Shown one piece after another: positions 1-22,092 of a stretch of 64,000 bases of DNA. Below the pieces are notes generated by a model. That model was not told where the DNA came from. It worked only from the letters and a program-made list of their open reading frames with translations, and did not search any database. Numbering within the stretch: position 1 is the first letter of the stretch; every line of letters begins with the position of its first letter. The position numbers and the translations under genes are program-made. Source of the stretch: Trypanosoma brucei (taxonomy: Eukaryota); contig CP000070.1 in NCBI GenBank assembly GCA_000002445.1, forward strand, positions 1,312,001-1,376,000. Direction: 5' to 3'.

Positions 1-915
1 TCCTACTGCGACGCCAGCGGCCGGCGCAGGGCGAACCTGCGGCAGCTGACCATCCCCCACGCCCCACGACAAGCTCCCATTCCACCACCATGCGGCCATG
101 CCCCAGTGGTACAACACCGACGGAACTGACGCACCCCCATTTTCACTGGCGAATTTCGAATGCACCAATGGCGCGCCACGCACGGTGGCCTTTACAGTGT
201 GAATCCGCTCCATCCTCCGGGAGAGAAGGTGCACGGAGTGAGCAAACACCGTCGACCAAACTATCCGTCCCGAAACCTTCAGAGGCCTGAAGACAAGCAT
301 TTCTTGTTTTTTCGTGGTACTCCCCGCCTTGCACTACCACACCGTCCCGACAGCGACCCTCTGCGCATCTTGGTTGCCACACCCACCCTATTGAATGGAG
401 GAGTCCCTATTGCGAGCGGTGAGCCTAAACTAACCGCACAGGTGGCCCCAAATGGGCAAAGCACGTTGTCGTATTTCCCCCTTCTTCTTAATATGTGTGT
501 CTTTCCCTCCTTATACATGGCATTTGCTTTTGCTCACCCTGAAGGAGGGGCCCTTTTTCTTGGTCTCGCTTCTTATTGTTGTGTTTTGGTCAAATAGTGT
601 TTTCCCGTGAGCGTACCACGTTGTAACACCATCCCTTCAAATCATTTAATCACTCATGCGTGCGATGTCCCGGAGGGCTCGATTTCTCTTCCATCACGCG
701 GGATGACCCTCCCCTGACCACAAGCTGAACAAAACATCCTATTGCTTGTTGCACCTCAAGAGGTGATGGGTCGGCCGCGCCTTCTTCAGGATGTCGCTAC
801 CGGTCCTGTTGGACAGCCCTCCGTCTACAATGCTCCCCGTCGGACCATGTAACATTTCCATCGTGCTTTTATCATTTATGAATGTTGAGAATAACCACGG
901 TCCGGCCTCGTAGCG

Positions 916-941
916 CACACACACACACACACACACACACA
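916..941. repeat. (CA)13 dinucleotide microsatellite
   Basis: Uninterrupted cacaca... run read directly in the ORF-poor leader region. Confidence 0.9.
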
Positions 942-3900
942 GCTGCACCAACCCCTGATGGAATCTCCAGAATACTCATGTGACCCAGTCCGGTGAAAAA
1001 ACCGCTCCTAACTTTACCAGCATGAGCCTGGTTATTATGGACACTTCTTGCGCACACAACTCCACGACTCATACAGGCTTCGTTGTGTGGCCCGGTTACT
1101 TTGGCGCCTTCCTCAACGCATACCTCTACGGGTCACCATAAGATTTAGTGAAGGGCGCGTTATCCCCCGAAACGGTATGCGCCCGCTTTGGTAGTTTAAA
1201 CTTCAATGAAGTCATCTTTTGATCACTAGGTATCGTGGACAGGTCCAGCCCGTGGGGTTACATTTCAGCTTCCGTCAACCCTCCTCTGTTTGCGTTAGCA
1301 TAAGGTTGCCGGCGGGGAAAAGGTTTAATATATTCTGTTTACATTGGTTAGTAACTCAGTGGATCTATCGTTCACGGCCATGAACAGAACAAAGTCGGAC
1401 ACCGTTCTTTTTGCCACACGGTACGGCTATATGGGGCCTTCCCAAAGTACTGTCGGTTTATAATGACTCTCGCCATCTTGTTGGGTGAAAGTTTCTTACC
1501 CACCACATAATTTGTAGATTAGAAAAAAACTTTCTCGGCCGCTCAGAAAATGGCAACATTTCCCATGGGTTCAAACTAACGAGTGTAGAGTATGAATTTC
1601 ACCGTGGCGAGCACCGTCGATTCGTACCAAGTTGCGTCTCCAATCAACTGAGTTATGGATCCTACTGCCAAATGTTGGCGCAGAAACCTTTCTCTTTTGT
1701 ATACGCAACTGACAGTCAACAGAGTCCACAAATCTCCTTTGAATCAACTACTGCATTGCTTTGTAATTGGCGCAGGTGGTCGCTGTTAGTTTTTGACGAT
1801 GCCATGACAGAAATCCCCTTGCTTTCCCCTAACGCCAGTTCAATAGCTTCACACTTCCACTTCCCGACACTCCTCAGCATTTTCGATTCCCGTTGAGTAG
1901 TTGTTTACCTGTAGTTTAGCCCGTTTACCTCCATGTGCTTTAGTTGGTACACCATACACGCCATTTTCTTCAGCAGAAGAAGGAAATTTCGATCTTCCTG
2001 TGGCAACAATCGGCTCAACCATGCGAAACAGTTTGTGTTTCGCGTCTTCTCAACCTCTGGCACGTTCTTTACCGGGGCATCCGAGAGTTTTGTCTGTCGT
2101 TGGTGGCACATTTTTGACCTTGGTTGCGGCTACCGCTCCTTCTATCAGCGTCTTGCCGTTTATCACTGGTGGAAGGGTTGGTCCCCATTCTGGGGCGTGC
2201 ACCGCGTTCGAAAACTTGCGGCCGCTTTTTTTCTGTTGCCGACGATTTGGGTACATGATCTTTCCATTTTTTAAAGGCTAGTACATGCATGACATGTATC
2301 CTAACTTCAAAGAGGTCGCCTTTCCCTTGCACCTGTGGGAGATTATCAGCTTCCTAGTTTAGTTCTGAAAAACTACTGTTCATAGTAAGAGAAATTACTG
2401 GTCTACAGCTATGGATATTCCTCACTAGAGAGTCGCACATTGCTACGTGCATCCTGTCCCCATTTCAGTTTATACACGCTTCCATCTTGCAGAGCACTTT
2501 CCTCTTCCCTGTTACCCACCGTTTCTTGGATTATATACAGGTTGCCTCTTTTGATGAGAAGTGGGAGCTTCGATGAGCGGTTGGCATTATTTTTTCAACT
2601 CCTGACCCGGCGATGGCATGGAAGACTCTCGAACTGCGGTTGTAGTTCAGCCTGAGCGCGGCGTTCTTCTGCGGCACATCACAATTCTATTGGGAACTAC
2701 TGTCCGGGGCGAATTTGGTTCTTCAATTTTTTCTCCTTGCAATTGTCCCTGTGTGGACGACTCCCATTTCGTCATCCACAAACCAATTTGAGGTTGTCTT
2801 GCCTCTGTGAGTTCGTGAGATATGTTTGTCTTATGTAGGATGGTGGAAAATAACGTTCACCCGGTTAATGATCTCAGCCTTTCCGTGCCCGTTGTGGCGT
2901 TCTCCAGAAAGCGGTTGGGCGCAACGGTGAGCTTTACATGGCGGTCAACCGCCACCATGGTGGTTGCGTCTCCCATCAATTTCGGAGTTGACGACCCCTT
3001 TAGTAACTTCCACTACGTCCAGGACGAGGCATAGGCTCTGGGGACTCCGTTTTCAGTGCGTGCGTGTCCGCAACGCTTATATCCCATCACATTAAAGCAA
3101 AGGCTTTCCCCTCGGCTGAACCGCGTTTCTCAGGGAACGCAGAAAGTCACTTCGCCCTTTCGCAACGTTTCCACCGGGACGACCTCCTTCGATTGGGGCC
3201 GGAACATTTTATATCTCACTGAGCCGCGCGGGTGCCGGAACCAGTGGATTGACTGGGACCTTCGGCAAGTAACAGAGTGAGGCCGCGGGGATCTTGCGTA
3301 TGGACTTGTTGGCATGTGCTTCGGTGCAACTCGAGCTGCGTTGGACCCCCGGTGGCCGGCAGTCCGCCGTGCGTCGGCGCGGCCGCGGGTAACCCGAGGC
3401 AATTGCCATTCCATTCTTTCTGGGAGGGCTTTGACACGTCGGGGTTTATGTGTACGGCCGGCGGCTAACCTAACTGCCACGAAAGAACAACTCCAATAAG
3501 TTGTTTCCGTCTTGATTCTCGAGGTTTCAGGGATCCCGTATTAAACCATCCGGCGTGGGGGCGCACGGTCAAAGTCTTCTTTCCACATGCGGTGTGATTG
3601 ACTGCGAGGTCGTGGGTACCCGGAGATAGTTTGAGGGTAGCTCCCCTTTGTAAGCTTTCCCCCCGCCCGCGCTACGGTTACTTCCGTCTTCTTTCCACAA
3701 TGGGATATTCCCAGTGGAATGGGTTCCGGGGCCTTATCACCTCTCGTGCGGGAAAATTCTGACTCTTTGTGCCCTGTGGGGTTGTCTTTGATGACGGGGT
3801 CGGAGTTATCTTGAGACAATTTCACATTTCCTTCCCCCAATACGTTCTGTCGGGCGATGTGTTCTCGTACGGTTGCCCCTGCGTTGCGTTCAACTGGTTG

Positions 3901-4181
3901 ATCCTCGCGCCCGTTGCGCCTTACACGGAGTTTTGAGCCCCCCTTCAGGGTTCTGGGCGTTACCGGCAGCTGGGTGGTGGTTGCGGCTCCTTGCCATGAG
4001 TTTCATGTCCAGTGGACGCTGGAAGACATCTGAGGCAGCGCTCATTTTGATAGTATTGGCTATGTTGCTGTTTCTGACGTGTGTGTGGGAGGCTTCGCTT
4101 AGGTCGCTGATGGTGTTGCCGCTTTTTAAAAGTTCGGTCGAAAGGCGCGATGGGGGTGAGGCGCCGTGTGTGCACATAAAC

Positions 4182-4207
4182 TGTGTTTGTGTGTGTGTGT
4201 GTGTGTG
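4182..4207. repeat. (TG)n microsatellite, imperfect
   Basis: tgtgtttgtgtgtgtgtgtgtgtgtg read directly; complementary in composition to the (CA)n run at 916. Confidence 0.85.
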
Positions 4208-6041
4208 ATGGAGGAGCGACTTAGCTCCACCAACGCTGAGAGAAGTGGTTTTAATCTAGTGGTTACTGCCGCTTTGGATTTCCCCTACTGGCGCCAATTC
4301 TGTTATTTGTGCCAGGTAATGGATAATTTGGGATGAGGGTATTGTTTTAATGTTGATGAGAGGCCGCACATGTTTTTTCCCTCTCGCCAATAGCTTGCAT
4401 TTCCAAAAATTTATTATATACCCTGAAAAATTGGCGGCATTTACCTCAATACACTGCTGCGTTCTGTATCTGGACGGTTGGTGCGTACCCCAGAAAAATA
4501 CGTAGCTCCTTTGAGTTATGTGTGGATGTTGTCCATTTATGCCACTGTTTCCCCTACCTATGTGGGGGGACTTGGTATCTTTGTGTTTTTGCCCATTATG
4601 AGGTAAAGCTATTGACGTGGTTTGCTGCGCACTTTCTGTTAAGTATGTTCGAGCTATCGTGTTCATGCGATCAATTTACGATCCCTATAACGGGTTATAT
4701 ATTGGGTTTCTTAGTTGTTGTTGTTTTTGAAGAAAGCGTGTGTCGGGGACGAGCGGCTGTTACAAACTAGGAGTTAAGACCGTCAGTCGTGTATATTTTT
4801 TGCGGTGCTGAATTCATGTGCCATCACTTACATCTTTTTCGTATGATTAATTTTTTTTTTTTGCCGAATCAGATTATCTGTTTATTGGAGGGTATTGGAG
4901 TGCCTTCGCTTTTGTTTAGCATTTTCCCGATTTCTGTTACTGGTTGGTTGGTCTACCGTTTTCCTGCGTAAATGGCGTAGGCGACGTGCTAACATAATTT
5001 GTGTTTCACTTACTGCGGTGCTGTGGGCAAGAAAAAGACCTACTTATGGACGTGAGCCTTTCGAACTATTGGAAAACAGTGGTTTCACTCAGTAAGGCTG
5101 CATCAGTTTTGCTACTGTCGTACATTTGAGAGTGCTCTCGACGCTTTTCGACCGAATTTTTTTTTAAAAAACTTCGTTGAAGTGTTTTCACGGCCATGCG
5201 CGTATGAATAGTAGGAACATTCGTGTATATATGTGCGAAAGTTTCTGTTTTTTTTGTTGATGATTCAGTCTCTTGACTGACGCCTTACCCTTTTTGGTGT
5301 TGATGTATCATATTAGGCCAGGAAAAGAAGGGGGAGGGGTTCACCAATCTACATTCGTACCGACCATTGCCACTAGAATCCATATGGGTAAATATTTGTA
5401 ATCAACTTTTGAGGAACTAGTACTATATCTTATTTCTCTAGAAGGAGGCTAACTACTGAGTGGGGTGATCCACTTTATAGTTTATAACTCACGGACAAAC
5501 AAACCCGTTCCTATCCTTGATTGAGTTTGGCTTGTTCTACCGGCCCTTATAAACACAAAGCTACTGTTGTCGGAAATTCGTAAAGAAAGCCGACTGTCGT
5601 TTCTTTGCTTTTTCGTTATACGTGGTTGCACTCTTTGTTGATACTTTTGTCAATGTTATCTTATGCATAATGCTAAAGCACGAAATGTACCCTAATTCAA
5701 GTTGTTGTAATGTGTTGCTGGCTTCGACATATTACAGATGAATGCCCCCTTTCTACTATAAGACACCGTTTACCTCCCCCCTGACAACAGTGGAGAGAGT
5801 TTGCCAGATACGCCGCCAGCGGTTAAGTCCGTTGTGGAAATAGCATCAACAGGATGGATGTAGGCGATGATGAGTAAGCGTTAAATCTTCTCATAGACGT
5901 TGTGAGAAACAGTGTCTCACAGTTAAATAAATATTGGCTCGCTGGTGTGGGGACTTCTTGCCACCAGAGCCTGCGTGGGCTGACAATGTTGTCGGGCATT
6001 ACCTTTGAAATATTTCTGTTTAATTTTGAGATATATCATGA

Positions 6042-6070
6042 TTTTTCTTCCCCCCTCCTTTTTTCTTTAG
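6042..6070 (+). promoter_or_regulatory. Polypyrimidine tract plus AG, candidate trans-splice acceptor for the GS gene
   Basis: ttcttcccccctccttttttctttAG ends 36 nt upstream of the first ATG that gives a GS-like N-terminus. This is the usual kinetoplastid pre-mRNA processing context. Confidence 0.4.
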
Positions 6071-6105
6071 CCATTCGCATCGTGATTGCTTGTGGAATTC
6101 CGTCA

Positions 6106-7251
6106 ATGACAAACTCTTCAGTGCAGCAGGTTGGTTGCCGGGTAACATACATATGGCTTTCTGGAAAGGATTCGCATCACGATATTCGCAGCAAGGACAG
6201 AACCATATATATTTCACCTGATGATTTGGAAAAGGACCCCAAAGAGCTTCTCCGTTTGGATATGTTCCCTGTATGGAATTTTGACGGTTCCTCAACAGGT
6301 CAAGCTGAAGGATTAATAACTGAAATTCACATCAAGCCTGTAAATGCGTACCACTGTTGCATTCCCCGTGCTTCCTCTTCAGTACCATGGATAGTTGTAC
6401 TCGCTGAATGCTTTTTACCGACCGGCGAACCCACACCCGATAACTCGCGGGCGGTAGCTCGTCGCATATTTGATAAAGGGCTCGGTACCCATCCATGGTT
6501 TGGGATGGAACAGGAATATTTCTTGGTAAAAGACGGACATCCCTATGGTTGGTGTCCCACTTGTCCCCCCGCGTCCCAGGGACCTTACTACTGCGCAACT
6601 GGCTCTGAATGTATCCGAGGTCGGAAACATGTTGATTTGCATTATGAGGTTTGCCTGCAAATGGGACTCAAGATATGTGGCACAAATGCTGAAGTTGCAT
6701 TTGGACAGTGGGAATTTCAAGTCGGGCCGTGCGAAGGGATCGAAATGGGTGATCAGCTTGTTGTGGCTAGGTGGGTGTTGCTACGAATTTTGGAGCTTGA
6801 AGGGTTGGATGCAGATTTTCGTGCAAAGCCTATTTTGGGCGACTGGAACGGTAGCGGACTTCACACCAACTTCTCAACAGAGGCCACTCGGGCACCGGGT
6901 GGTTTGGAAGTCATTTATCAATATATTGAAAGATTAAAGGAAACTTCGTCCAAGGATATAATTTTTTATGGAGTTGACAATAACGAGCGGTTAATAGGGA
7001 AGCACGAGACCTCAAAATTAAATGAAACAACGTTTGGAATAGGTACACGGGGGACCTCAATTCGAATTCCTACCGCTGTGGCTGCCGCACAAAGTGGTTA
7101 TATGGAGGATCGCCGGCCTGCGGCAGGGGCTGATCCATACTTGGTGTCATCAAGGCTCTTTGCATCATGCCTATCAGTGGACGCCGTTGAACTGGATTTT
7201 TCATCTCCTCGACACGAGCGGGAGTGGATGGCAAGTACTTCTAAGGTGTAG
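6106..7251 (+). CDS. GS: Glutamine synthetase, eukaryotic type II (381 aa)
   Basis: The translation carries GS-II signatures WNFDGSSTGQAEG, HPWFGMEQEYFL, QGPYYC, GTNAEVAFGQWEFQVGPC, NGSGLHTNFST and RIPTAVA...GYMEDRRPAAGADPY. Start is the first ATG (MTNSSVQQ) after the polypyrimidine/AG. The track's longer GTG-initiated extension encodes hydrophobic non-GS sequence. Confidence 0.9.
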   Translation: MTNSSVQQVGCRVTYIWLSGKDSHHDIRSKDRTIYISPDDLEKDPKELLRLDMFPVWNFDGSSTGQAEGLITEIHIKPVNAYHCCIPRASSSVPWIVVLAECFLPTGEPTPDNSRAVARRIFDKGLGTHPWFGMEQEYFLVKDGHPYGWCPTCPPASQGPYYCATGSECIRGRKHVDLHYEVCLQMGLKICGTNAEVAFGQWEFQVGPCEGIEMGDQLVVARWVLLRILELEGLDADFRAKPILGDWNGSGLHTNFSTEATRAPGGLEVIYQYIERLKETSSKDIIFYGVDNNERLIGKHETSKLNETTFGIGTRGTSIRIPTAVAAAQSGYMEDRRPAAGADPYLVSSRLFASCLSVDAVELDFSSPRHEREWMASTSKV

Positions 7252-11905: not shown

Positions 11906-12688
11906 ATGGTGTCACTGAAGCTCCAAGCTCGCCTGGCAGCGGACATCCTGCGCTGCGGCCGCGGCCGCGTGTGGTTGGACCCTAACGAAGCAGTAGAGAT
12001 TCGCAATGCCAATTCACGCAAGAGTGTACGCAAGTTGATCAAAGACGGTTTGGTAATGCGAAAGCCTGTTAAGGTGCATTCGCGCTCCCGCTGGCGCCAG
12101 ATGAAGTTGGCGAAGAGCATGGGACGCCACGAGGGTACCGGCCGCCGCGAGGGTACTCGCGAAGCACGCATGCCCAGCAAGGACCTTTGGATGCGCCGAC
12201 TTCGCATTCTTCGCCGTTTGCTTCGCAAGTACCGCGAAGAAAAGAAGATTGATCGGCACATCTACCGCGAGCTGTACATGAAGGCAAAGGGCAACGTGTT
12301 CCGCAACAAGCGCAACCTTATGGAGCACATCCACAAGGTGAAGAACGAGAAGAAGAAGGCTCGTCAGCTTGCTGAGCAACTCGCGGCGAAACGCCTAAAG
12401 GACGAGCAGAACCGCCGCAAGGCACGAAAGCAGGAGCTGAAGAAGCGTGAGAAGGAACGTGAGCGTGCACGCCGTGACGATGCCGCTGCTGCTGCCGCTG
12501 CCAAACAACGAGCTGCCGCGAAGAAGGCTGCCGCTCCCGCTGCCAAGAAGGGTGGCAAGGCTGTTGCCCCCGCCACTCCTGCGAAGGCCGCCCCTGCAAA
12601 GGCCGCCGCTGCGAAGGTTGCCCCAGCGAAGGCGGCTCCCGCAAAGGCCGCCAGCCCTGCCGGGAAGAAGGCAGCGGGTAAGAAGTGA
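11906..12688 (+). CDS. RPL19: 60S ribosomal protein L19e, copy 1 (260 aa)
   Basis: [28 protein letters not shown]...[24 protein letters not shown] is canonical eL19. Ala/Lys/Pro-rich C-terminal tail typical of trypanosomatid L19. ATG start. Confidence 0.95.
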
Positions 12689-13589: not shown

Positions 13590-14372
13590 ATGGTGTCACT
13601 GAAGCTCCAAGCTCGCCTGGCAGCGGACATCCTGCGCTGCGGCCGCGGCCGCGTGTGGTTGGACCCTAACGAAGCAGTAGAGATTCGCAATGCCAATTCA
13701 CGCAAGAGTGTACGCAAGTTGATCAAAGACGGTTTGGTAATGCGAAAGCCTGTTAAGGTGCATTCGCGCTCCCGCTGGCGCCAGATGAAGTTGGCGAAGA
13801 GCATGGGACGCCACGAGGGTACCGGCCGCCGCGAGGGTACTCGCGAAGCACGCATGCCCAGCAAGGACCTTTGGATGCGCCGACTTCGCATTCTTCGCCG
13901 TTTGCTTCGCAAGTACCGCGAAGAAAAGAAGATTGATCGGCACATCTACCGCGAGCTGTACATGAAGGCAAAGGGCAACGTGTTCCGCAACAAGCGCAAC
14001 CTTATGGAGCACATCCACAAGGTGAAGAACGAGAAGAAGAAGGCTCGTCAGCTTGCTGAGCAACTCGCGGCGAAACGCCTAAAGGACGAGCAGAACCGCC
14101 GCAAGGCACGAAAGCAGGAGCTGAAGAAGCGTGAGAAGGAACGTGAGCGTGCACGCCGTGACGATGCCGCTGCTGCTGCCGCTGCCAAACAACGAGCTGC
14201 CGCGAAGAAGGCTGCCGCTCCCGCTGCCAAGAAGGGTGGCAAGGCTGTTGCCCCCGCCACTCCTGCGAAGGCCGCCCCTGCAAAGGCCGCCGCTGCGAAG
14301 GTTGCCCCAGCGAAGGCGGCTCCCGCAAAGGCCGCCAGCCCTGCCGGGAAGAAGGCAGCGGGTAAGAAGTGA
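13590..14372 (+). CDS. RPL19: 60S ribosomal protein L19e, copy 2 (260 aa), identical to copy 1
   Basis: Protein is identical to 11906..12688. The antisense artefact ORFs are also identical, which implies the DNA is identical across the CDS. Period between copies is 1684 bp. Confidence 0.95.
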
Positions 14373-16265: not shown

Positions 16266-18140
16266 ATGGAGCAAACCAGCAAACCCGCTAACCTTCCTCC
16301 CTGTTCACCAAGACAGGCGGTGAAGAATATTCTTAGGGGTGTCGATAGCCACGTTCGGGTTATGTCCCATTTAGATAACGTGTCCACTTCTTCCAGTTAC
16401 TCGGCGGTGCGGCTGAAGAAGCCGAAAACGGATTCTTGGACGGAACCATTTAACGTGACCCGTGTGCATCGAGGTACATCTACGAATAGTTTCTACCAGG
16501 AGGTTATAGCACCGTGCGTGGCAAACTGTTTAGCTGGGCAGAGTTACCTGTTTTTAGTTAGTGGTCCCTGTGAAAGCGGTCGAAGTCAGACCCTCTACGG
16601 CAGTCCACACCATAAAACCAAGGGCGTCGTTGAACTTGCCGCCGAAGACTTGTTGGGCTATATGACCGGTGGTGCTGAGAACAACGATGACAACCCTAGT
16701 AGGGGGCAGCCAACAGTCACCCATTCCGCCTTTGTTACGCGCGGGTCACACATAAACGAAACAAAGACAGGCGAGCCCGTTCCTATTGTGGACTTTCCAC
16801 CTCCGCTGGGTCGCACTGCTCTTCCGCGCATGCAGTTGCTAGAGTCAGCTGCTAGCGTTGTACAAATACCCGAGCACAAGTATTCAGACACTTCTTGTAT
16901 TATTCAGTTTCAGGTTTATGTTCCGGTGGACACCCTAGGACGGCGTTCCATGGCCACACTAACCTTTGTGGACGCTGCAGCATTTCACTCGCAGCCGTGC
17001 AGTGAGGTTCGTCATCTTGTATCTACCGTGCGTCGGGTGGCGGGACTGTCTAACGGCGACGGCCCCAGTTTCGATCAGAGGAAACTGACGACTTTGCTTG
17101 AGCCTGCACTTATGGGTTATGTCACGCTAATGTCCATCACAACCATCAGTGGTCGAGATGACTTACACGAAGCGGCATGTGAAGCTCTGCGCTTCGCTGA
17201 GACCATTAGTCGGATTCATCAGGTTCTTATGTTAGTACACATCAACACGCCCAAGTGGTTCCTAGACACGGCGGAGAAAGTAGAGGTTCTGAGGTCCCAG
17301 CGTAATAAGATGCTGTCTGAACAGCATGCTCGCGGCGTGTATGACTATTACGTGACTGTCACCAAGTGGTTGTCTCAGCATGTGGCCGGCGCCGGTTGTA
17401 CGTTTGATAAATTACTTGAAGAAGTGGAGCAAATTCGTGAAGACCTTGCGTGTGAGATGAAGGAGAGGGTTAAAAGCGTCCAGGCATCTATACAAGAGGC
17501 TGAGAAACAGCACGCTCTTCAACTTGAGCGCACACGCAATGCCCACGCGATAACAACTTCACAATTGGACAAGGTAAAACGCTTAGACGAAACAATAGCC
17601 GCGCTTACTCAGAAGGTGACACAGCGAGATCTGTTCAACGACCACAAAATAAGCGAAATGCGTATCGAAATATCTGCTATTGAAAGCGAAACAGAGACGC
17701 GGAGACAGGAGTTGCTGCGGTTCGAAAATGAGGAGAGGCTGTACGGAACTAAATGCGCGGAGGTGATGGGGGTTCTTGAGAAATATTCAGCAGACCTTGC
17801 TAATTCCCAGATGCACTACGTGCTCACCGAAGAGATGAGTGCCATCGAAGAAAAGAAGAAACGCCTGGAGGCAGATCTTGCAACTGCTTCGCGTATTGCA
17901 CATATGGAGAGTGACAATTTCCGCGCTAATCGAGAGAAGAATTCACGCCTCTCACACCTGTCGGTGATGCAGCAGAAAGTTGACTCCCTTCGGGGACGTA
18001 TCTTAACAAACAGCGTTTCCCATACCATGAGCCGAAGCGCAAGCCACCTTAGCCCGCGTAGTCAGCCTGACGCTTCGCCTTCAGAGTCACCGGCGCAAAA
18101 GCGGCGGCGGTTCGCAAGCCCGCGGTACTCCGCTGTGTAG
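16266..18140 (+). CDS. Kinesin-like protein with degenerate nucleotide-binding motifs (pseudo-kinesin) plus C-terminal coiled coil (624 aa)
   Basis: The segment FNVTRVHRGTSTNSFYQEVIAPCVANCLAGQSYLFLVSGPCESGRSQTLYG aligns with the kinesin FxFDxVF...QxxVY...GYNxTIFAYGQTGSGKT. Here the P-loop is GPCESGRS, switch-I SSRSH is SDTSC, and switch-II LVDLAGSE is LTFVDAAAFH. C-terminal ~250 aa is heptad-rich (coiled coil). Confidence 0.55.
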   Translation: MEQTSKPANLPPCSPRQAVKNILRGVDSHVRVMSHLDNVSTSSSYSAVRLKKPKTDSWTEPFNVTRVHRGTSTNSFYQEVIAPCVANCLAGQSYLFLVSGPCESGRSQTLYGSPHHKTKGVVELAAEDLLGYMTGGAENNDDNPSRGQPTVTHSAFVTRGSHINETKTGEPVPIVDFPPPLGRTALPRMQLLESAASVVQIPEHKYSDTSCIIQFQVYVPVDTLGRRSMATLTFVDAAAFHSQPCSEVRHLVSTVRRVAGLSNGDGPSFDQRKLTTLLEPALMGYVTLMSITTISGRDDLHEAACEALRFAETISRIHQVLMLVHINTPKWFLDTAEKVEVLRSQRNKMLSEQHARGVYDYYVTVTKWLSQHVAGAGCTFDKLLEEVEQIREDLACEMKERVKSVQASIQEAEKQHALQLERTRNAHAITTSQLDKVKRLDETIAALTQKVTQRDLFNDHKISEMRIEISAIESETETRRQELLRFENEERLYGTKCAEVMGVLEKYSADLANSQMHYVLTEEMSAIEEKKKRLEADLATASRIAHMESDNFRANREKNSRLSHLSVMQQKVDSLRGRILTNSVSHTMSRSASHLSPRSQPDASPSESPAQKRRRFASPRYSAV

Positions 18141-19170: not shown

Positions 19171-22092
19171 ATGCACGACGGGTCGCAGCAAGATGCGTCC
19201 CACGGAGCGACTGCAATGAACAGTGGTGTGGTTCCGGATGGCCAGTGGAGGGTGGATGAAAATATCATTATCCGAGAGATACTTGCAATGAATACACTTG
19301 CCATGCAGAGGTGCGATACGGGGGCACTCGATGAATCAAGTAGTATTCTTACTGATGCCTACATGAAACTGCACAACGATACATCAACCGGTGAATCCCA
19401 GGGGTTAGACGCGGTACGTGCAACGACACTCAACAACCTTGGTGTTGTTGAATGCCACCGCGGGCAGCATCGACAGGCGCTAAGTCATTTCGAAGCCGCA
19501 CGGCAGTTGGAGGAGGCGTGGAGTGCCGCCTCCCCTTCCGTGGCTTTGAACAGCTGTGCTGCATATAATGCACTTGGAATGTATGACAAAGCCACGGCTG
19601 CTGCAATGGAAACTATCAATATGTTGCGCAGGTTGTTTGCCCAACAAGAGTTTCAGGGATCGCCTACCGGTGAAGTTGCTTCTACCCCCGGTGGAAGCTG
19701 TGGCGCACAACCTCAGAGCGATGGGATGAATGTTGCCAGTTCCGACAACGCAGCACTGTGGGGTGCCGCCTGGCACAATTTGGCGGTTGCGCAAATCAAC
19801 ACGGCAAAGAGCAGCACTGATCTGAGTGAGTACACCAATGCTGCGGCTCTGTTCCAGAATGCTATGCGTGCGACGCAAGAGTTGTTAGGGTATGACCATC
19901 CGATGACAAAGAGTGTGACGGAGACATACCGTGCGGTACGCAACGCGCTACGGACGCACGGCGTTTATAAACAACACCACACTCTCTTTACGGCACCTTT
20001 GAGGCCTGCGGACCCGCGTGATGAGGCGGATGATATGGAGCAGTATTTCAAGCAATGTGGCATCAAGTCGAGGAGACGGGCTTTGGAAAAGTATTACCGC
20101 GATTTGACCATCACGTTCTGTGGTGCTGTGACGAATGGAGTGAAACTGACTGAGCGGCTCGATCCCACTCCGTACCCCCTGGCAAAAGATGTGTCATTTC
20201 GCAGGAGTGGTCAAAAGGATTCACTGCGAATGTTGCGAGCAATACCGACGGGGAGCACTATTGAGAAAGCATGTCACCTGTACGGTAATCCACATCCTTT
20301 GCTATTTTCGTTACCGCCTGAGTACCGTGCAAGTGAGGTGGGGACTGCAAAGAGTATCCCAAAAGCTGCATCAGCTAATTCTTTTGCAAAAGTGCCTATG
20401 AAACCCAATGCTCTCGCAAGCTCCAGAAGACCACAACCGAAGCGTGAGCAGATATTTAACGAGGGGCAAAGGAGAATGCAAATTCAGTCGAATATGCCAA
20501 AGCAGCAGCAGCGCCAAATCGGTCCGCCATCGACTGTGGTGAACTATTCACGCGCACTACAGGAAACCCCGGGAGCTGCGCCAACTATTCCTCAGATTAC
20601 CCCTCTGAGTTACAAAGCGAGCATCGATGAGCACTGGCAACCACCAGTTAATCAAACTCCGGCACCTGTGAATTACAACTGGTCCGTTCAACAGCAGGCA
20701 CCAAATACTGTCCCAACGGCTCCGCTTGTTTACCAGCAGGCATCAGTTAATCAAACTCCGGCACCTGTGAATCACAACTGGTCCGTTCAACAGCAGGCAC
20801 CAAATACTGTCCCAACTGCTCCGCTTGTTTACCAACAGACGCCAGTTAATCAGGGTCAAGCACCTTTGAATCACAACTGGTCCGCTCAACAGCAGGCACC
20901 AAACGTTGTTCCAACGGCTCCGCTTGTTTACCAGCAGGCATCAGTTAATCAAACTCCGGCGCCTGTGAATCACAACTGGTCCGTTCAACAGCAGGCACCA
21001 AACACTGTTCCAACTGCTCCGCTTGTTTACCAGCAGGCACCAGTTGATCAAACTCCGGCGCCTGTGAATTACAACTGGTCCGCTCAACAGCAGGCACCAA
21101 ATACTGTTCCAACTGCTCCACTTGTTTACCAACAGGCACCAGTTAGTCAGGGTCAAGCGCCTGCCGTGGCCAGTCAACCCCCCCTGAACCAGATGCCGAA
21201 CGTTTCTCAAGGAGAATCATTTGATCACCAGCAAGGGATGAGTGGACGACAGGAACCTTTGCGCCAGCAAGAACAGCAGATGCTGGCCTCATGCCGCCGG
21301 CAAGCTCCCGCTGACCTTGGCCAGGGAGCTGCAGCCGACCACCGTTCGCATCAGGAGTCGGTCTCTAATAATACCCTGGTAGTTGGTGGACAGGAAGAAA
21401 AAAAGAAGAAGGACCATGTGCAACCTGTTCCCGCTGCACCCGCGGCTGTTCCTGCTGGGCCCGCGGTCGGTGAGGCTTCGAAGCCTGCAGCGGCGGTTCG
21501 AGGGCCCCTTCCACCCCTGAAATCACCACCAGGTGGTCGTGTGATAGCAAAGGCTGAGACATCCGATGGAGTTGAGGGAATCGTTAGTGCGCCACGCAAA
21601 GCTTCGTCCGGAGGGCAAACAGCGACATATGATGCACGGAGAGCCTACGAGCAAATAAAGTACATTCTACTGGCCGACCCACCGGCCGAGGCTTCCCGGA
21701 GAAAATCTAAGCAAGACCGTAGCAAAAAGGATTCTGTGCCTGCAAATGTGCCCCAACAGGAATGTGGCCCCTGGACCGATAACGCAGCACCCGCAGCCGG
21801 GGAGTCACCAACGGAGCATAAGCCTCACCGTCTATTTGATGCTTTATGGGTTTCGGGCGGGGGCCCAGCTGACCAGGCCCCGCTGCGCGTAGTTGGGAAG
21901 CCCAGCTACTTTGTGTCATCCGTCCTTGACATGCGCCAGGGTCAGGCGGAATTCCCTGAGGAGGTGATGCAGATGGTGGCGGAAAATAGTCGTTCCTCTT
22001 GTTCCGATGTGGAGGAAAGACATTCTCAGACGATGGGGCCCGCGCAACACTCATGCACTGAGGCTGGAATACCCACACATGATCAGTCATGA
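19171..22092 (+). CDS. TPR-like protein with Gln/Pro/Asn-rich 33-aa tandem repeats (973 aa)
   Basis: Track start is GTG; first ATG at 19171. The N-terminal third has kinesin-light-chain-like TPR helices (LNNLGVVECHRGQHRQALSHFEAARQLEE; WHNLAVAQINTAKSSTDL...LFQNAMRATQELLGYDHPMT). The middle has five full and one partial copy of VNQTPAPVNxNWSVQQQAPNTVPTAPLVYQQAx. C-terminus is Pro/Ala-rich. Confidence 0.6.
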   Translation: MHDGSQQDASHGATAMNSGVVPDGQWRVDENIIIREILAMNTLAMQRCDTGALDESSSILTDAYMKLHNDTSTGESQGLDAVRATTLNNLGVVECHRGQHRQALSHFEAARQLEEAWSAASPSVALNSCAAYNALGMYDKATAAAMETINMLRRLFAQQEFQGSPTGEVASTPGGSCGAQPQSDGMNVASSDNAALWGAAWHNLAVAQINTAKSSTDLSEYTNAAALFQNAMRATQELLGYDHPMTKSVTETYRAVRNALRTHGVYKQHHTLFTAPLRPADPRDEADDMEQYFKQCGIKSRRRALEKYYRDLTITFCGAVTNGVKLTERLDPTPYPLAKDVSFRRSGQKDSLRMLRAIPTGSTIEKACHLYGNPHPLLFSLPPEYRASEVGTAKSIPKAASANSFAKVPMKPNALASSRRPQPKREQIFNEGQRRMQIQSNMPKQQQRQIGPPSTVVNYSRALQETPGAAPTIPQITPLSYKASIDEHWQPPVNQTPAPVNYNWSVQQQAPNTVPTAPLVYQQASVNQTPAPVNHNWSVQQQAPNTVPTAPLVYQQTPVNQGQAPLNHNWSAQQQAPNVVPTAPLVYQQASVNQTPAPVNHNWSVQQQAPNTVPTAPLVYQQAPVDQTPAPVNYNWSAQQQAPNTVPTAPLVYQQAPVSQGQAPAVASQPPLNQMPNVSQGESFDHQQGMSGRQEPLRQQEQQMLASCRRQAPADLGQGAAADHRSHQESVSNNTLVVGGQEEKKKKDHVQPVPAAPAAVPAGPAVGEASKPAAAVRGPLPPLKSPPGGRVIAKAETSDGVEGIVSAPRKASSGGQTATYDARRAYEQIKYILLADPPAEASRRKSKQDRSKKDSVPANVPQQECGPWTDNAAPAAGESPTEHKPHRLFDALWVSGGGPADQAPLRVVGKPSYFVSSVLDMRQGQAEFPEEVMQMVAENSRSSCSDVEERHSQTMGPAQHSCTEAGIPTHDQS
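20647..21165 (+). repeat. 99-bp in-frame tandem repeat, 5 full and 1 partial copy, inside the CDS
   Basis: gttaatcaaactccggc(a/g)cctgtgaat(t/c)acaactggtcc... recurs at 20647, 20746, 20845, 20944, 21043 and 21142. Period is exactly 99 nt with a few substitutions per copy. Confidence 0.9.

What the first reader, a model, noticed from the sequence alone, without database searches (positions are those of the whole stretch)
20647..21165. Exact 99-bp in-frame tandem array encoding a Gln/Pro/Asn-rich 33-residue repeat inside a TPR protein
Five full copies plus one partial copy at a strict 99-nt period, with only a few substitutions per copy. The unit is VNQTPAPVNxNWSVQQQAPNTVPTAPLVYQQAx. High inter-copy identity implies recent expansion or contraction, or homogenisation. 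The composition (Q/N/P, aromatic W/Y spacers) is prion-like or phase-separation-like. It sits C-terminal to kinesin-light-chain-type TPR helices. Copy number is likely polymorphic between strains and is prone to collapse in short-read assemblies.
Basis: seen in the sequence. Interest (0 to 1): 0.5.

Follow-up and report, generated by a model that had tools for sequence, protein, structure and literature searches.

The report
Copy-variable coding repeat in trypanosome TPR protein
A 99-base unit repeated in frame five to six times lengthens a floppy, uncharged Gln/Pro-rich stretch of an uncharacterised Trypanosoma brucei TPR protein; the number of units differs between strains, and related species have grown different repeats at the same spot, but this is an ordinary kind of coding minisatellite whose function is unproven.

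Summary
Tandem Repeats Finder gives a 99-bp period, 5.1 copies, 89% matches and no indels at 20642-21149. In codon register there are five units at 20647-21141, plus a sixth, degenerate full-length unit at 21142-21240.

The array lies in the 973-aa ORF 19171-22092 (+), which is identical to T. b. brucei TREU927 XP_846128.1/Q57ZI4, a conserved hypothetical protein on chromosome 7.

AlphaFold2 folds only residues 23-380, a TPR domain plus a small alpha/beta subdomain. The repeats (aa 493-657) sit in a tail with pLDDT below 50.

Copy number differs by whole units between assemblies:
- TREU927: 5 units.
- DAL972: 4 units.
- T. equiperdum OVI: 4 units.
- T. b. equiperdum: 3 units.

The joins are chimeric units, as expected from in-register unequal recombination.

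The units themselves are not young. Synonymous divergence between units is 0.19, against 0.01 between subspecies flanks. pN/pS is about 0.35.

T. vivax, T. cruzi, T. conorhini and Porcisia carry dissimilar in-frame arrays confirmed at DNA level (periods 333, 63/84, 24 and 60 bp). T. congolense shows a 7-aa repeat at protein level only. All lie in the same linker.

The prion-like reading is not supported: Q+N peaks at 27 per 80 residues, with 16% Pro. A role as a multivalent Tyr/Trp-in-P/Q module is plausible but untested. This is a new member of a known kind, of modest interest.

The parts
19171..22092 (+). Coding sequence (973 aa plus stop) of the repeat-bearing TPR protein. It equals T. b. 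brucei TREU927 XP_846128.1 / Q57ZI4. The gene is probably Tb927.7.5050; that ID is inferred, not verified.
   Evidence: ORF list. Exact-sequence look-up. The upstream kinesin-like ORF fits TbKIN-B, Tb927.7.5040.
19237..20310 (+). Folded N-terminal domain, aa 23-380. TPR helices span aa 23-262 (to nt 19956). A small alpha/beta subdomain spans aa 280-375 and ends in the conserved YGNPHPLLFSLPPEY.
19417..19629 (+). Pfam TPR_12 / TPR_10 match.
   Evidence: TPR_12 E 9.8e-10 at 38.9 bits (cut-off 30.1); TPR_10 E 4.4e-8.
20320..22089 (+). Predicted disordered tail, aa 384-973. It contains the repeats and short conserved C-terminal motifs: YEQIKYILLADP (21646-21681), HRLFDALWV (21826-21852) and VGKPSYFVSSVLD (21892-21930).
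   Evidence: pLDDT is below 50 almost throughout. Motif positions come, and their conservation.
20647..21141 (+). Five 99-bp (33-aa) tandem units with consensus VNQTPAPVNHNWSVQQQAPNTVPTAPLVYQQAP. The core QQQAPN(T/V)VPTAPLVYQQ is invariant in all 16 units from four assemblies. Each unit holds one PTAP tetrapeptide, at 20713, 20812, 20911, 21010 and 21109.
21142..21240 (+). Sixth, degenerate terminal unit (VSQGQAPAVASQPPLNQMPNVSQGESFDHQQGM).
   Evidence: It has 54/99 in-register identity against a shuffle null of 26 +/- 4, maximum 38. The TRF period-297 row extends to 21233.
21425..21466 (+). Minor 21-bp x 2 in-frame repeat encoding a Pro/Ala-rich stretch in the same disordered tail.
   Evidence: TRF score 63. 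It is also present in the DAL972, OVI and T. b. equiperdum loci.

Best explanation
The feature is a coding minisatellite (an in-frame VNTR) in the disordered linker of a kinetoplastid-restricted TPR scaffold protein.

Shown:
- The 99-bp units are translated as an uncharged Gln/Pro/Val/Ala/Asn-rich segment with no predicted fold. It lies between a conserved N-terminal TPR domain and short conserved C-terminal motifs.
- The array gains and loses whole units. The chimeric junction units point to in-register unequal recombination or replication slippage.
- The units are much older than the T. brucei subspecies. They show a modest excess of synonymous change.
- The same linker has independently acquired dissimilar in-frame arrays in other trypanosomatids.

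Inferred:
- Each unit adds a fixed set of aromatic residues in a Pro/Gln context (Y/H-N-W and L-V-Y-Q-Q). The array would then act as a multivalent, low-affinity interaction and spacer module whose valency and length are tuned by copy number.
- The TPR domain and the C-terminal motifs would provide the specific contacts.
- The partners and the cellular process are unknown.
For: Array and frame.

Identity of the gene.

Disorder: AlphaFold2 with a 43-sequence alignment gives pLDDT below 50 for aa 384-973, against 80-96 for aa 23-262.

Copy-number change:
- TREU927 has 5 units and T. equiperdum OVI has 4.
- Their flanks show 0 differences in 2427 nt.
- OVI unit 1 is a chimera of the 5' part of TREU927 unit 1 and the 3' part of unit 2.
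- DAL972 has 4 units (a-b-c-b') and T. b. equiperdum has 3 (a-b-c) on a second haplotype.

Age and constraint:
- pS is 0.19 and pN 0.066 between units, against pS 0.0105 between the TREU927 and DAL972 flanks.
- There are 11 synonymous and 13 non-synonymous variants, where 24% synonymous is expected. Binomial p = 0.017.
- Residues 15-31 of the unit are invariant in 16 units, apart from one T/V position.

Recurrent arrays at about 1.46-1.9 kb from the ATG, every period a multiple of three:
- T. vivax: 333 bp x 1.9.
- T. cruzi: 63/84/147 bp compound.
- T. conorhini: 24 bp x 3.7.
- Porcisia: 60 bp x 4.5.
- T. congolense: 7-aa repeats.

Within-species length differences also occur in T. cruzi (2, 2, 3 and about 6 units) and T. 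vivax (1 versus 2).

All these units place Tyr, or Trp, in a Pro/Gln-rich context.
Against: - No functional data exist. No paper in the searchable library mentions the presumed gene ID. Three supplement searches found nothing.
- Repeats are absent from many orthologues, including T. rangeli, T. grayi, Leishmania, Leptomonas and Phytomonas. A specific repeat is therefore not required for the family's core function.
- The selection signal is weak. It rests on small counts and non-independent units. It would weaken further if transition bias were taken into account, and gene conversion confounds it.
- Recurrent expansion could reflect mutational bias in low-complexity DNA plus tolerance, rather than selection for valency.
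- The OVI assembly may be short-read based (from my own memory, not checked here), so its 4-unit array could be a collapse.
Confidence: 0.6

Rival explanations
1. The array is a neutral spacer. The linker tolerates almost any uncharged low-complexity sequence, and slippage-prone DNA expands and contracts there with no functional consequence. Only approximate linker length or flexibility matters.
For: - Unit sequences are not demonstrably homologous between T. brucei and T. vivax, T. congolense, T. conorhini or Porcisia (z about 0 against shuffles).
- Many orthologues have no repeats.
- Linker length ranges from 221 to 453 residues within Trypanosoma.
- Copy number varies freely within species.
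Against: - There is an excess of synonymous variation among units (pN/pS 0.34-0.38; p = 0.017).
- A 17-residue core is invariant across 16 units despite pS of 0.19.
- Tyr in a P/Q context is a shared theme of the independent arrays.
Confidence: 0.3
2. The array is a set of short linear motifs of the 'late-domain' type. Each T. brucei unit carries PTAP, the classical ligand of the TSG101/Vps23 UEV domain. Most Trypanosoma orthologues carry SLPPxY just after the TPR domain. T. conorhini has amplified PPP(S/G)Y, a WW-domain ligand. On this reading the protein would be an adaptor that recruits ESCRT-I or WW-domain proteins multivalently.
For: - PTAP is present once in every unit of every assembly (5, 4, 4 and 3 copies).
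- A PPxY follows the N-domain in 7 of 8 Trypanosoma species examined.
- T. conorhini has 5 PPxY and T. grayi has 3.
- P[TS]AP arises in only 1.6% of composition-matched shuffles of the unit.
Against: - The motif was noticed post hoc, after nine motif classes had been scanned. Any of three late-domain motifs arises in 6.2% of shuffles.
- The five copies are one amplified occurrence, not five independent ones.
- PTAP is not in the repeats of T. cruzi, T. vivax, T. congolense or Porcisia.
- No literature on PTAP recognition by trypanosome Vps23 was found.
Confidence: 0.07
3. The array is a prion-like, amyloid-forming Q/N domain.
For: Q+N is 30% of the array, charged residues are almost absent, and aromatic residues are regularly spaced.
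Against: - The maximum Q+N in 80 residues is 27, below the threshold of 30.
- Pro is 16% and Val 14%. By established knowledge, Pro disfavours amyloid prion cores.
- There is no G/S/Y enrichment of the FUS or Sup35 kind.
- PLAAC and PAPA were not run.
Confidence: 0.03
4. The array is an assembly artefact, a mis-assembled or collapsed repeat.
For: Repeat arrays of about 500 bp can be collapsed by short-read assemblers. The 4-unit OVI allele differs from TREU927 only by a clean one-unit loss.
Against: - Four independent assemblies carry the array at the same place, in frame, with distinguishable unit variants in consistent order.
- The units differ at 6-16 positions, which anchors their order.
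Confidence: 0.02

Closest known systems
Intragenic tandem repeats (coding minisatellites/VNTRs) that generate length variation in proteins, for example yeast cell-wall genes (Verstrepen et al. 2005, cited in PMC13309793)
   Same: - The unit is in frame, with a period that is a multiple of three.
- Whole units are gained and lost between strains, with recombinant junction units.
- The repeat encodes a low-complexity region.
   Different: - The protein here is predicted to be an intracellular TPR scaffold, not a surface adhesin.
- No phenotype is linked to copy number.
Tandem-repeat (TR) proteins of trypanosomatids, catalogued with Tandem Repeats Finder as dominant B-cell antigens (Goto et al. 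2007 and 2008, as cited in PMC13309793)
   Same: - It is a trypanosomatid gene with a high-scoring TRF array (813).
- The repeat region is disordered, which is the general property reported for repeat proteins in PMC13309793.
   Different: - Antigenicity was not tested.
- I did not check whether this gene is in those catalogues.
- Copy number (5) is low compared with the classical TR antigens, as far as I recall them.
Kinesin light chain and the LGN/Pins-type TPR_10/TPR_12 proteins
   Same: - The N-terminal domain matches Pfam TPR_12 and TPR_10.
- KLC1 and KLC2 TPR domains are the top Foldseek PDB matches.
- By published structures such as 3zfw and 6fuz, KLC TPRs bind Trp-acidic and Tyr-acidic peptides.
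   Different: - There is no N-terminal heptad-repeat region, since the TPR helices start at residue 23.
- Sequence relatives with E below 1e-25 number about 28 cluster representatives. The named ones are all kinetoplastids.
- The Trp and Tyr in the repeats are not flanked by acidic residues.
Sticker-and-spacer low-complexity domains of RNP-granule proteins (FUS-like, Sup35 oligopeptide repeats)
   Same: It is an uncharged polar tract with regularly spaced aromatic residues, and it is predicted to be disordered.
   Different: - It is rich in Pro and Val and poor in Gly and Ser.
- It fails the Q/N-rich criterion.
- There is no evidence of granule localisation.

Membership tests
Coding minisatellite / in-frame VNTR | Head-to-tail repeats with a period that is a multiple of three, inside an open reading frame | tested here: met
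   The period is 99 bp with 0% indels and 5.1 copies. The array is in frame in ORF 19171-22092.
Coding minisatellite / in-frame VNTR | Copy number varies between individuals or strains by whole units | tested here: met
   Four assemblies carry 5, 4, 4 and 3 units, with chimeric junction units. TREU927 and OVI flanks are identical. Caveat: assembly quality was not checked independently.
TPR protein (Pfam clan TPR; TPR_12/TPR_10 type) | Score above the Pfam gathering threshold | tested here: met
   TPR_12 scores 38.9 bits against a cut-off of 30.1. TPR_10 scores 33.3 bits against 27.5.
TPR protein (Pfam clan TPR; TPR_12/TPR_10 type) | Helix-turn-helix superhelical fold | tested here: met
Kinesin light chain | N-terminal heptad-repeat (coiled-coil) region that binds kinesin heavy chain, preceding six TPRs | tested here: not met
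   The TPR helices begin at residue 23 after a disordered N-terminus. No other Pfam domain was found. Specific sequence relatives are kinetoplastid proteins only.
Prion-like Q/N-rich domain | At least 30 Q+N in an 80-residue window (Michelitsch and Weissman criterion) | tested here: not met
   The maximum is 27, at residues 534-613.
Prion-like Q/N-rich domain | PLAAC or PAPA score above threshold | not testable with these tools
   The programs and their parameter tables are not available here.
Intrinsically disordered region | No confident fold predicted; low-complexity polar composition | tested here: met
   pLDDT is 30-45 over aa 384-973. The array is 0.6% charged, with Q, P, V, A and N making up 73%. 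AlphaFold2 pLDDT is a proxy. No dedicated disorder predictor was run.
ESCRT late-domain motif array (P(T/S)AP, PPxY) | Motif present and conserved across orthologues | tested here: inconclusive
   PTAP occurs once per T. brucei unit. PPxY follows the N-domain in most Trypanosoma and is amplified in T. conorhini. Neither is found in the repeats of T. cruzi, T. vivax, T. congolense or Porcisia. The chance rate is 1.6-6.2% per unit.
ESCRT late-domain motif array (P(T/S)AP, PPxY) | Binding to the Vps23/TSG101 UEV domain or to WW domains | not testable with these tools
   This needs a binding assay. No literature was found.
Trypanosomatid tandem-repeat B-cell antigens | Recognition by sera from infected hosts | not testable with these tools
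   This needs serology.

The most novel reading that the evidence does not exclude
The same disordered linker of one kinetoplastid TPR protein has been expanded by tandem duplication at least five or six separate times, with dissimilar units of 7, 8, 20, 21/28, 33 and 111 residues. Each unit carries Tyr or Trp in a Pro/Gln context. In T. brucei the unit carries PTAP, and in T. conorhini it carries PPxY. This pattern would mean selection for the valency of a short aromatic or late-domain-like motif. The protein would then be a copy-number-tunable multivalent adaptor, for example for ESCRT-I, for WW-domain partners or for a condensate, whose strength differs between strains.
Probability: 0.15. 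Interest if true: 0.55.

Novelty: new member of a known kind. Interest (0 to 1): 0.3.

Why it matters
If copy number tunes an interaction, this locus would be a natural allelic series (3, 4 and 5 units) in an uncharacterised protein conserved across kinetoplastids. It could be used to test how repeat valency in a disordered linker affects function.

In practice the array is a candidate strain-typing marker for the T. brucei group. It is also a place where short-read assemblies and read mapping may mis-state protein length.

Otherwise it is a routine example of repeat instability in a tolerant linker.

Tried and rejected
- XAC1 guess: from memory I guessed the protein was XAC1 of the MKT1-PBP1 complex. 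XAC1 is a 117-residue protein, so I rejected this.
- Gene ID: I looked for the presumed IDs Tb927.7.5050 and Tb927.7.5060 in main texts and in the supplements of TrypTag, the tethering screen and the cell-cycle phosphoproteome. Nothing was found. The stored files are truncated, so absence is weak evidence. The UniProt accession gave no paper either.
- Repeat-only protein search: a search with the repeat region alone returned no hit, not even the protein itself. It therefore says nothing about whether the unit occurs elsewhere.
- AFDB50 fold search: this library was unavailable.
- PDB sequence search: it gave only a designed consensus TPR, at E 0.003.
- Upstream proto-unit: I tested whether the sequence upstream of the array (20548-20646) is a degenerate unit. 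The result, 34/99 against a null of 27.5 +/- 4.3, is not significant.
- Unit homology across species: I tested the T. brucei unit against orthologue linkers. It is not significant for T. vivax, T. congolense, T. conorhini, T. rangeli, T. melophagium, Leishmania, Leptomonas, Phytomonas or Porcisia. It is marginal for a non-repeated segment of T. cruzi (1/300 shuffles) and T. grayi (0/300).
- Other motifs: I considered PAM2, the MKT1-binding H(N/D)PY motif, the eIF4E-binding YxxxxL-phi motif and GW182-type W-motifs by eye. The spacing or residues do not fit, or the residues are not conserved. None was pursued.
- RNA genes: there are no Rfam families or tRNAs in the window.
- Antisense ORF: the ORF at 20941-21210 is a by-product of a stop-free repeat.
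Full report
**Observation**

Tandem Repeats Finder reports one strong array in the region: 20642-21149, period 99, 5.1 copies, 89% matches, no indels, score 813. A second row for the same array has period 297 and runs to 21233. It is the only tandem repeat scoring at least 200 in the 64-kb window.

The consensus is VNQTPAPVNHNWSVQQQAPNTVPTAPLVYQQAP, and units differ pairwise at 6-16 of 99 nt.

The next 99 nt (21142-21240) form a degenerate sixth unit. It has 54/99 in-register identities, against 26 +/- 4 (maximum 38) for shuffles. The preceding 99 nt are not a recognisable unit. 'Exact' applies to the period, and 'partial copy' should read 'degenerate terminal copy'.

**Which gene**

- The array lies in ORF 19153(GTG)/19171(ATG)-22092 on the + strand.
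- The 973-aa product from the ATG is identical to T. b. brucei TREU927 XP_846128.1 / UniProt Q57ZI4. It is annotated 'hypothetical protein, conserved', on a 2.2-Mb contig, which from memory I take to be chromosome 7.
- All large ORFs in the window are on the + strand. From general knowledge this fits a trypanosome polycistronic unit.
- Neighbours include glutamine synthetase, a CCCH zinc-finger protein, two identical RPL19 genes, a divergent kinesin, CLN3 and condensin subunit 2.
- The kinesin fits TbKIN-B, which is Tb927.7.5040. The repeat gene is therefore probably Tb927.7.5050. I could not verify this ID.
- No paper in the library mentions the presumed ID. Three supplement searches and a search for the UniProt accession were empty.

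**Architecture**

Pfam finds only TPR_12 and TPR_10, near the N-terminus.

AlphaFold2 with a 43-sequence alignment gives these regions:
- Paired helices over aa 23-262, at pLDDT 80-96.
- A small alpha/beta subdomain over aa 280-375, at pLDDT about 77-83.
- pLDDT 30-45 for nearly all of aa 384-973, which includes the repeats at aa 493-657.

Sequence relatives fall into two groups. About 28 cluster representatives score E below 1e-25, and after them come generic multi-TPR proteins. The named relatives are all kinetoplastids: Trypanosoma, Leishmania, Leptomonas, Phytomonas, Porcisia and Angomonas.

Conservation is concentrated in the N-domain, where all 33 invariant columns lie. A few short C-terminal motifs are also conserved.

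**Copy number and mechanism of change**

I fetched the DNA of three other T. brucei-group assemblies and cut it in register.

| Assembly | Units | Unit order | Flank differences from TREU927 |
|---|---|---|---|
| TREU927 | 5 | 1-2-3-4-5 | reference |
| T. equiperdum OVI | 4 | 1/2 chimera-3-4-5 | 0 of 2427 nt |
| T. b. gambiense DAL972 | 4 | a-b-c-b' | 12 nt |
| T. b. equiperdum (GCA_003543875.1) | 3 | a-b-c | 13 nt |

- The first OVI unit is a chimera of the 5' part of TREU927 unit 1 and the 3' part of unit 2. That is what a one-unit, in-register unequal exchange or slippage event produces.
- TRF sees a 198-bp higher-order period in DAL972 and a 297-bp one in TREU927, so multi-unit steps also occur.
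One reservation is that I could not check how each assembly was made.

**Age and constraint**

Between units, pS is 0.18-0.19 and pN 0.066-0.069, a ratio of 0.34-0.38. Between the TREU927 and DAL972 flanks, pS is 0.0105 and pN 0.0032. The units therefore diverged long before the subspecies did. What is recent is the shuffling of their number.

Counting variants against the consensus gives 11 synonymous and 13 non-synonymous, where 24% synonymous is expected. The binomial p is 0.017. This is a modest signal. It would weaken if transition bias were taken into account.

Non-synonymous variation is concentrated in the first 14 codons of the unit. Residues 15-31 (QQQAPN[T/V]VPTAPLVYQQ) are otherwise invariant in all 16 units.

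**Comparison across species**

Self-comparison of the orthologous proteins shows tandem repeats in the same linker in several lineages:

| Species | Repeat unit | Copies |
|---|---|---|
| T. congolense | 7 aa | about 5 |
| T. vivax | 111 aa | 2 in one assembly, 1 in another |
| T. cruzi | 21/28 aa | 2, 2, 3 and about 6 in four strains |
| T. cruzi marinkellei | 28 aa | about 2 |
| T. conorhini | 8 aa | about 4 |
| Porcisia hertigi | 20 aa | 4.5 |

No repeats were detected in T. rangeli, T. grayi, T. melophagium, Leishmania, Leptomonas or Phytomonas.

At DNA level, four of these arrays were confirmed:
- T. vivax: 333 bp x 1.9.
- T. cruzi: 63/84/147 bp, compound.
- T. conorhini: 24 bp x 3.7.
- Porcisia: 60 bp x 4.5.

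Every period is a multiple of three. Identity is 96-98% for the T. vivax, T. conorhini and Porcisia arrays and for the 63-bp x 3.7 T. cruzi row. That is higher than the 89% in T. brucei. All arrays lie about 1.46-1.9 kb from the ATG.

The T. brucei unit is not significantly similar to these other units. It resembles, marginally, a non-repeated segment of T. cruzi (NQTPGAYTPTPNIQQQSPSTHQQAP) and of T. grayi.

What the units do share is composition and a motif-like theme, Tyr or Trp set in Pro/Gln:
- T. brucei: LVYQQAP.
- T. conorhini: PSYKQQP.
- T. cruzi: SYNQTP.
- T. vivax: PYYNPQP.
- Porcisia: RYQQQQ.

**Interpretation**

The secure part is that this is an in-frame, copy-number-variable minisatellite. 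It encodes part of a disordered linker in an uncharacterised kinetoplastid TPR protein.

For function I favour, at low to moderate confidence, a multivalent weak-interaction and spacer module whose valency is set by copy number. Three observations point that way:
- the modest purifying selection on the units;
- the invariant core of the unit;
- the repeated, independent amplification of aromatic-in-P/Q units at one site.

The main rival is a neutral, tolerant spacer.

The prion-like reading is not supported by composition:
- Q 18.8%, N 11.5%, P 16.4%, V 13.9%.
- At most 27 Q+N in any 80 residues.
- 0.6% charged residues.

A more specific lead is that every unit contains PTAP. Most Trypanosoma orthologues have SLPPxY just after the TPR domain, and T. 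conorhini has amplified PPP(S/G)Y. These are the classical ESCRT and WW-domain 'late-domain' motifs. However, the motif was found post hoc. It arises by chance in 1.6-6.2% of shuffled units. It is not shared by the other species' repeats. No supporting literature was found.

**Novelty**

Coding tandem repeats in trypanosomatid proteins, their disorder and their variability are well described as a class (PMC13309793 and the Goto and Verstrepen papers it cites). This locus is a new, tidy member of that class. The recurrent independent expansion at one linker is mildly interesting. Nothing here is categorically new.

Noticed in passing
window 11906-12688 and 13590-14372 (+): Two tandem copies of a ribosomal protein L19e gene encode 100% identical 260-aa proteins with an Ala/Lys/Pro-rich C-terminal extension.
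   Followed up: partly
window 16266-18140 (+): A divergent kinesin-like ORF of 624 aa lies immediately upstream. It has only a weak, partial Pfam kinesin motor match (aa 43-135, E 1e-8). It is probably TbKIN-B (Tb927.7.5040) of the chromosomal passenger complex. The adjacency is conserved in DAL972 and OVI. Within a polycistronic unit, adjacency is not evidence of a functional link.
   Followed up: partly
window 21425-21466 (+): A second, minor in-frame 21-bp x 2 repeat (Pro/Ala-rich, PVPAAPAAVPAGPAV) lies in the same disordered tail. It is present in all four T. brucei-group assemblies.
   Followed up: no
window 20281-20325 (+); orthologues P0003, P0006-P0015: The motif YGNPHPLL(F/Y)SLPPxY at the end of the folded domain is nearly invariant in Trypanosoma. 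It ends in a canonical PPxY, which is absent in T. vivax and in non-Trypanosoma orthologues.
   Followed up: partly
window 1-5900: There is no ORF of at least 200 aa before the first long + strand ORF (glutamine synthetase, 5902-7251). GC skew is negative only in the first 2 kb, whereas it is positive almost everywhere else in the window. This may be a long intergenic region or the boundary of a transcription unit.
   Followed up: no
window 20941-21210 (-): An 89-aa antisense ORF runs through the array. It is most simply a by-product of a stop-free repeat, not a gene.
   Followed up: no
L004 2024-2670 (T. vivax), compared with P0005: Two T. vivax assemblies differ by exactly one 111-aa (333-bp) unit in the orthologous gene, giving proteins of 967 and 856 aa. 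This is either real polymorphism or a collapse in one of the assemblies.
   Followed up: partly
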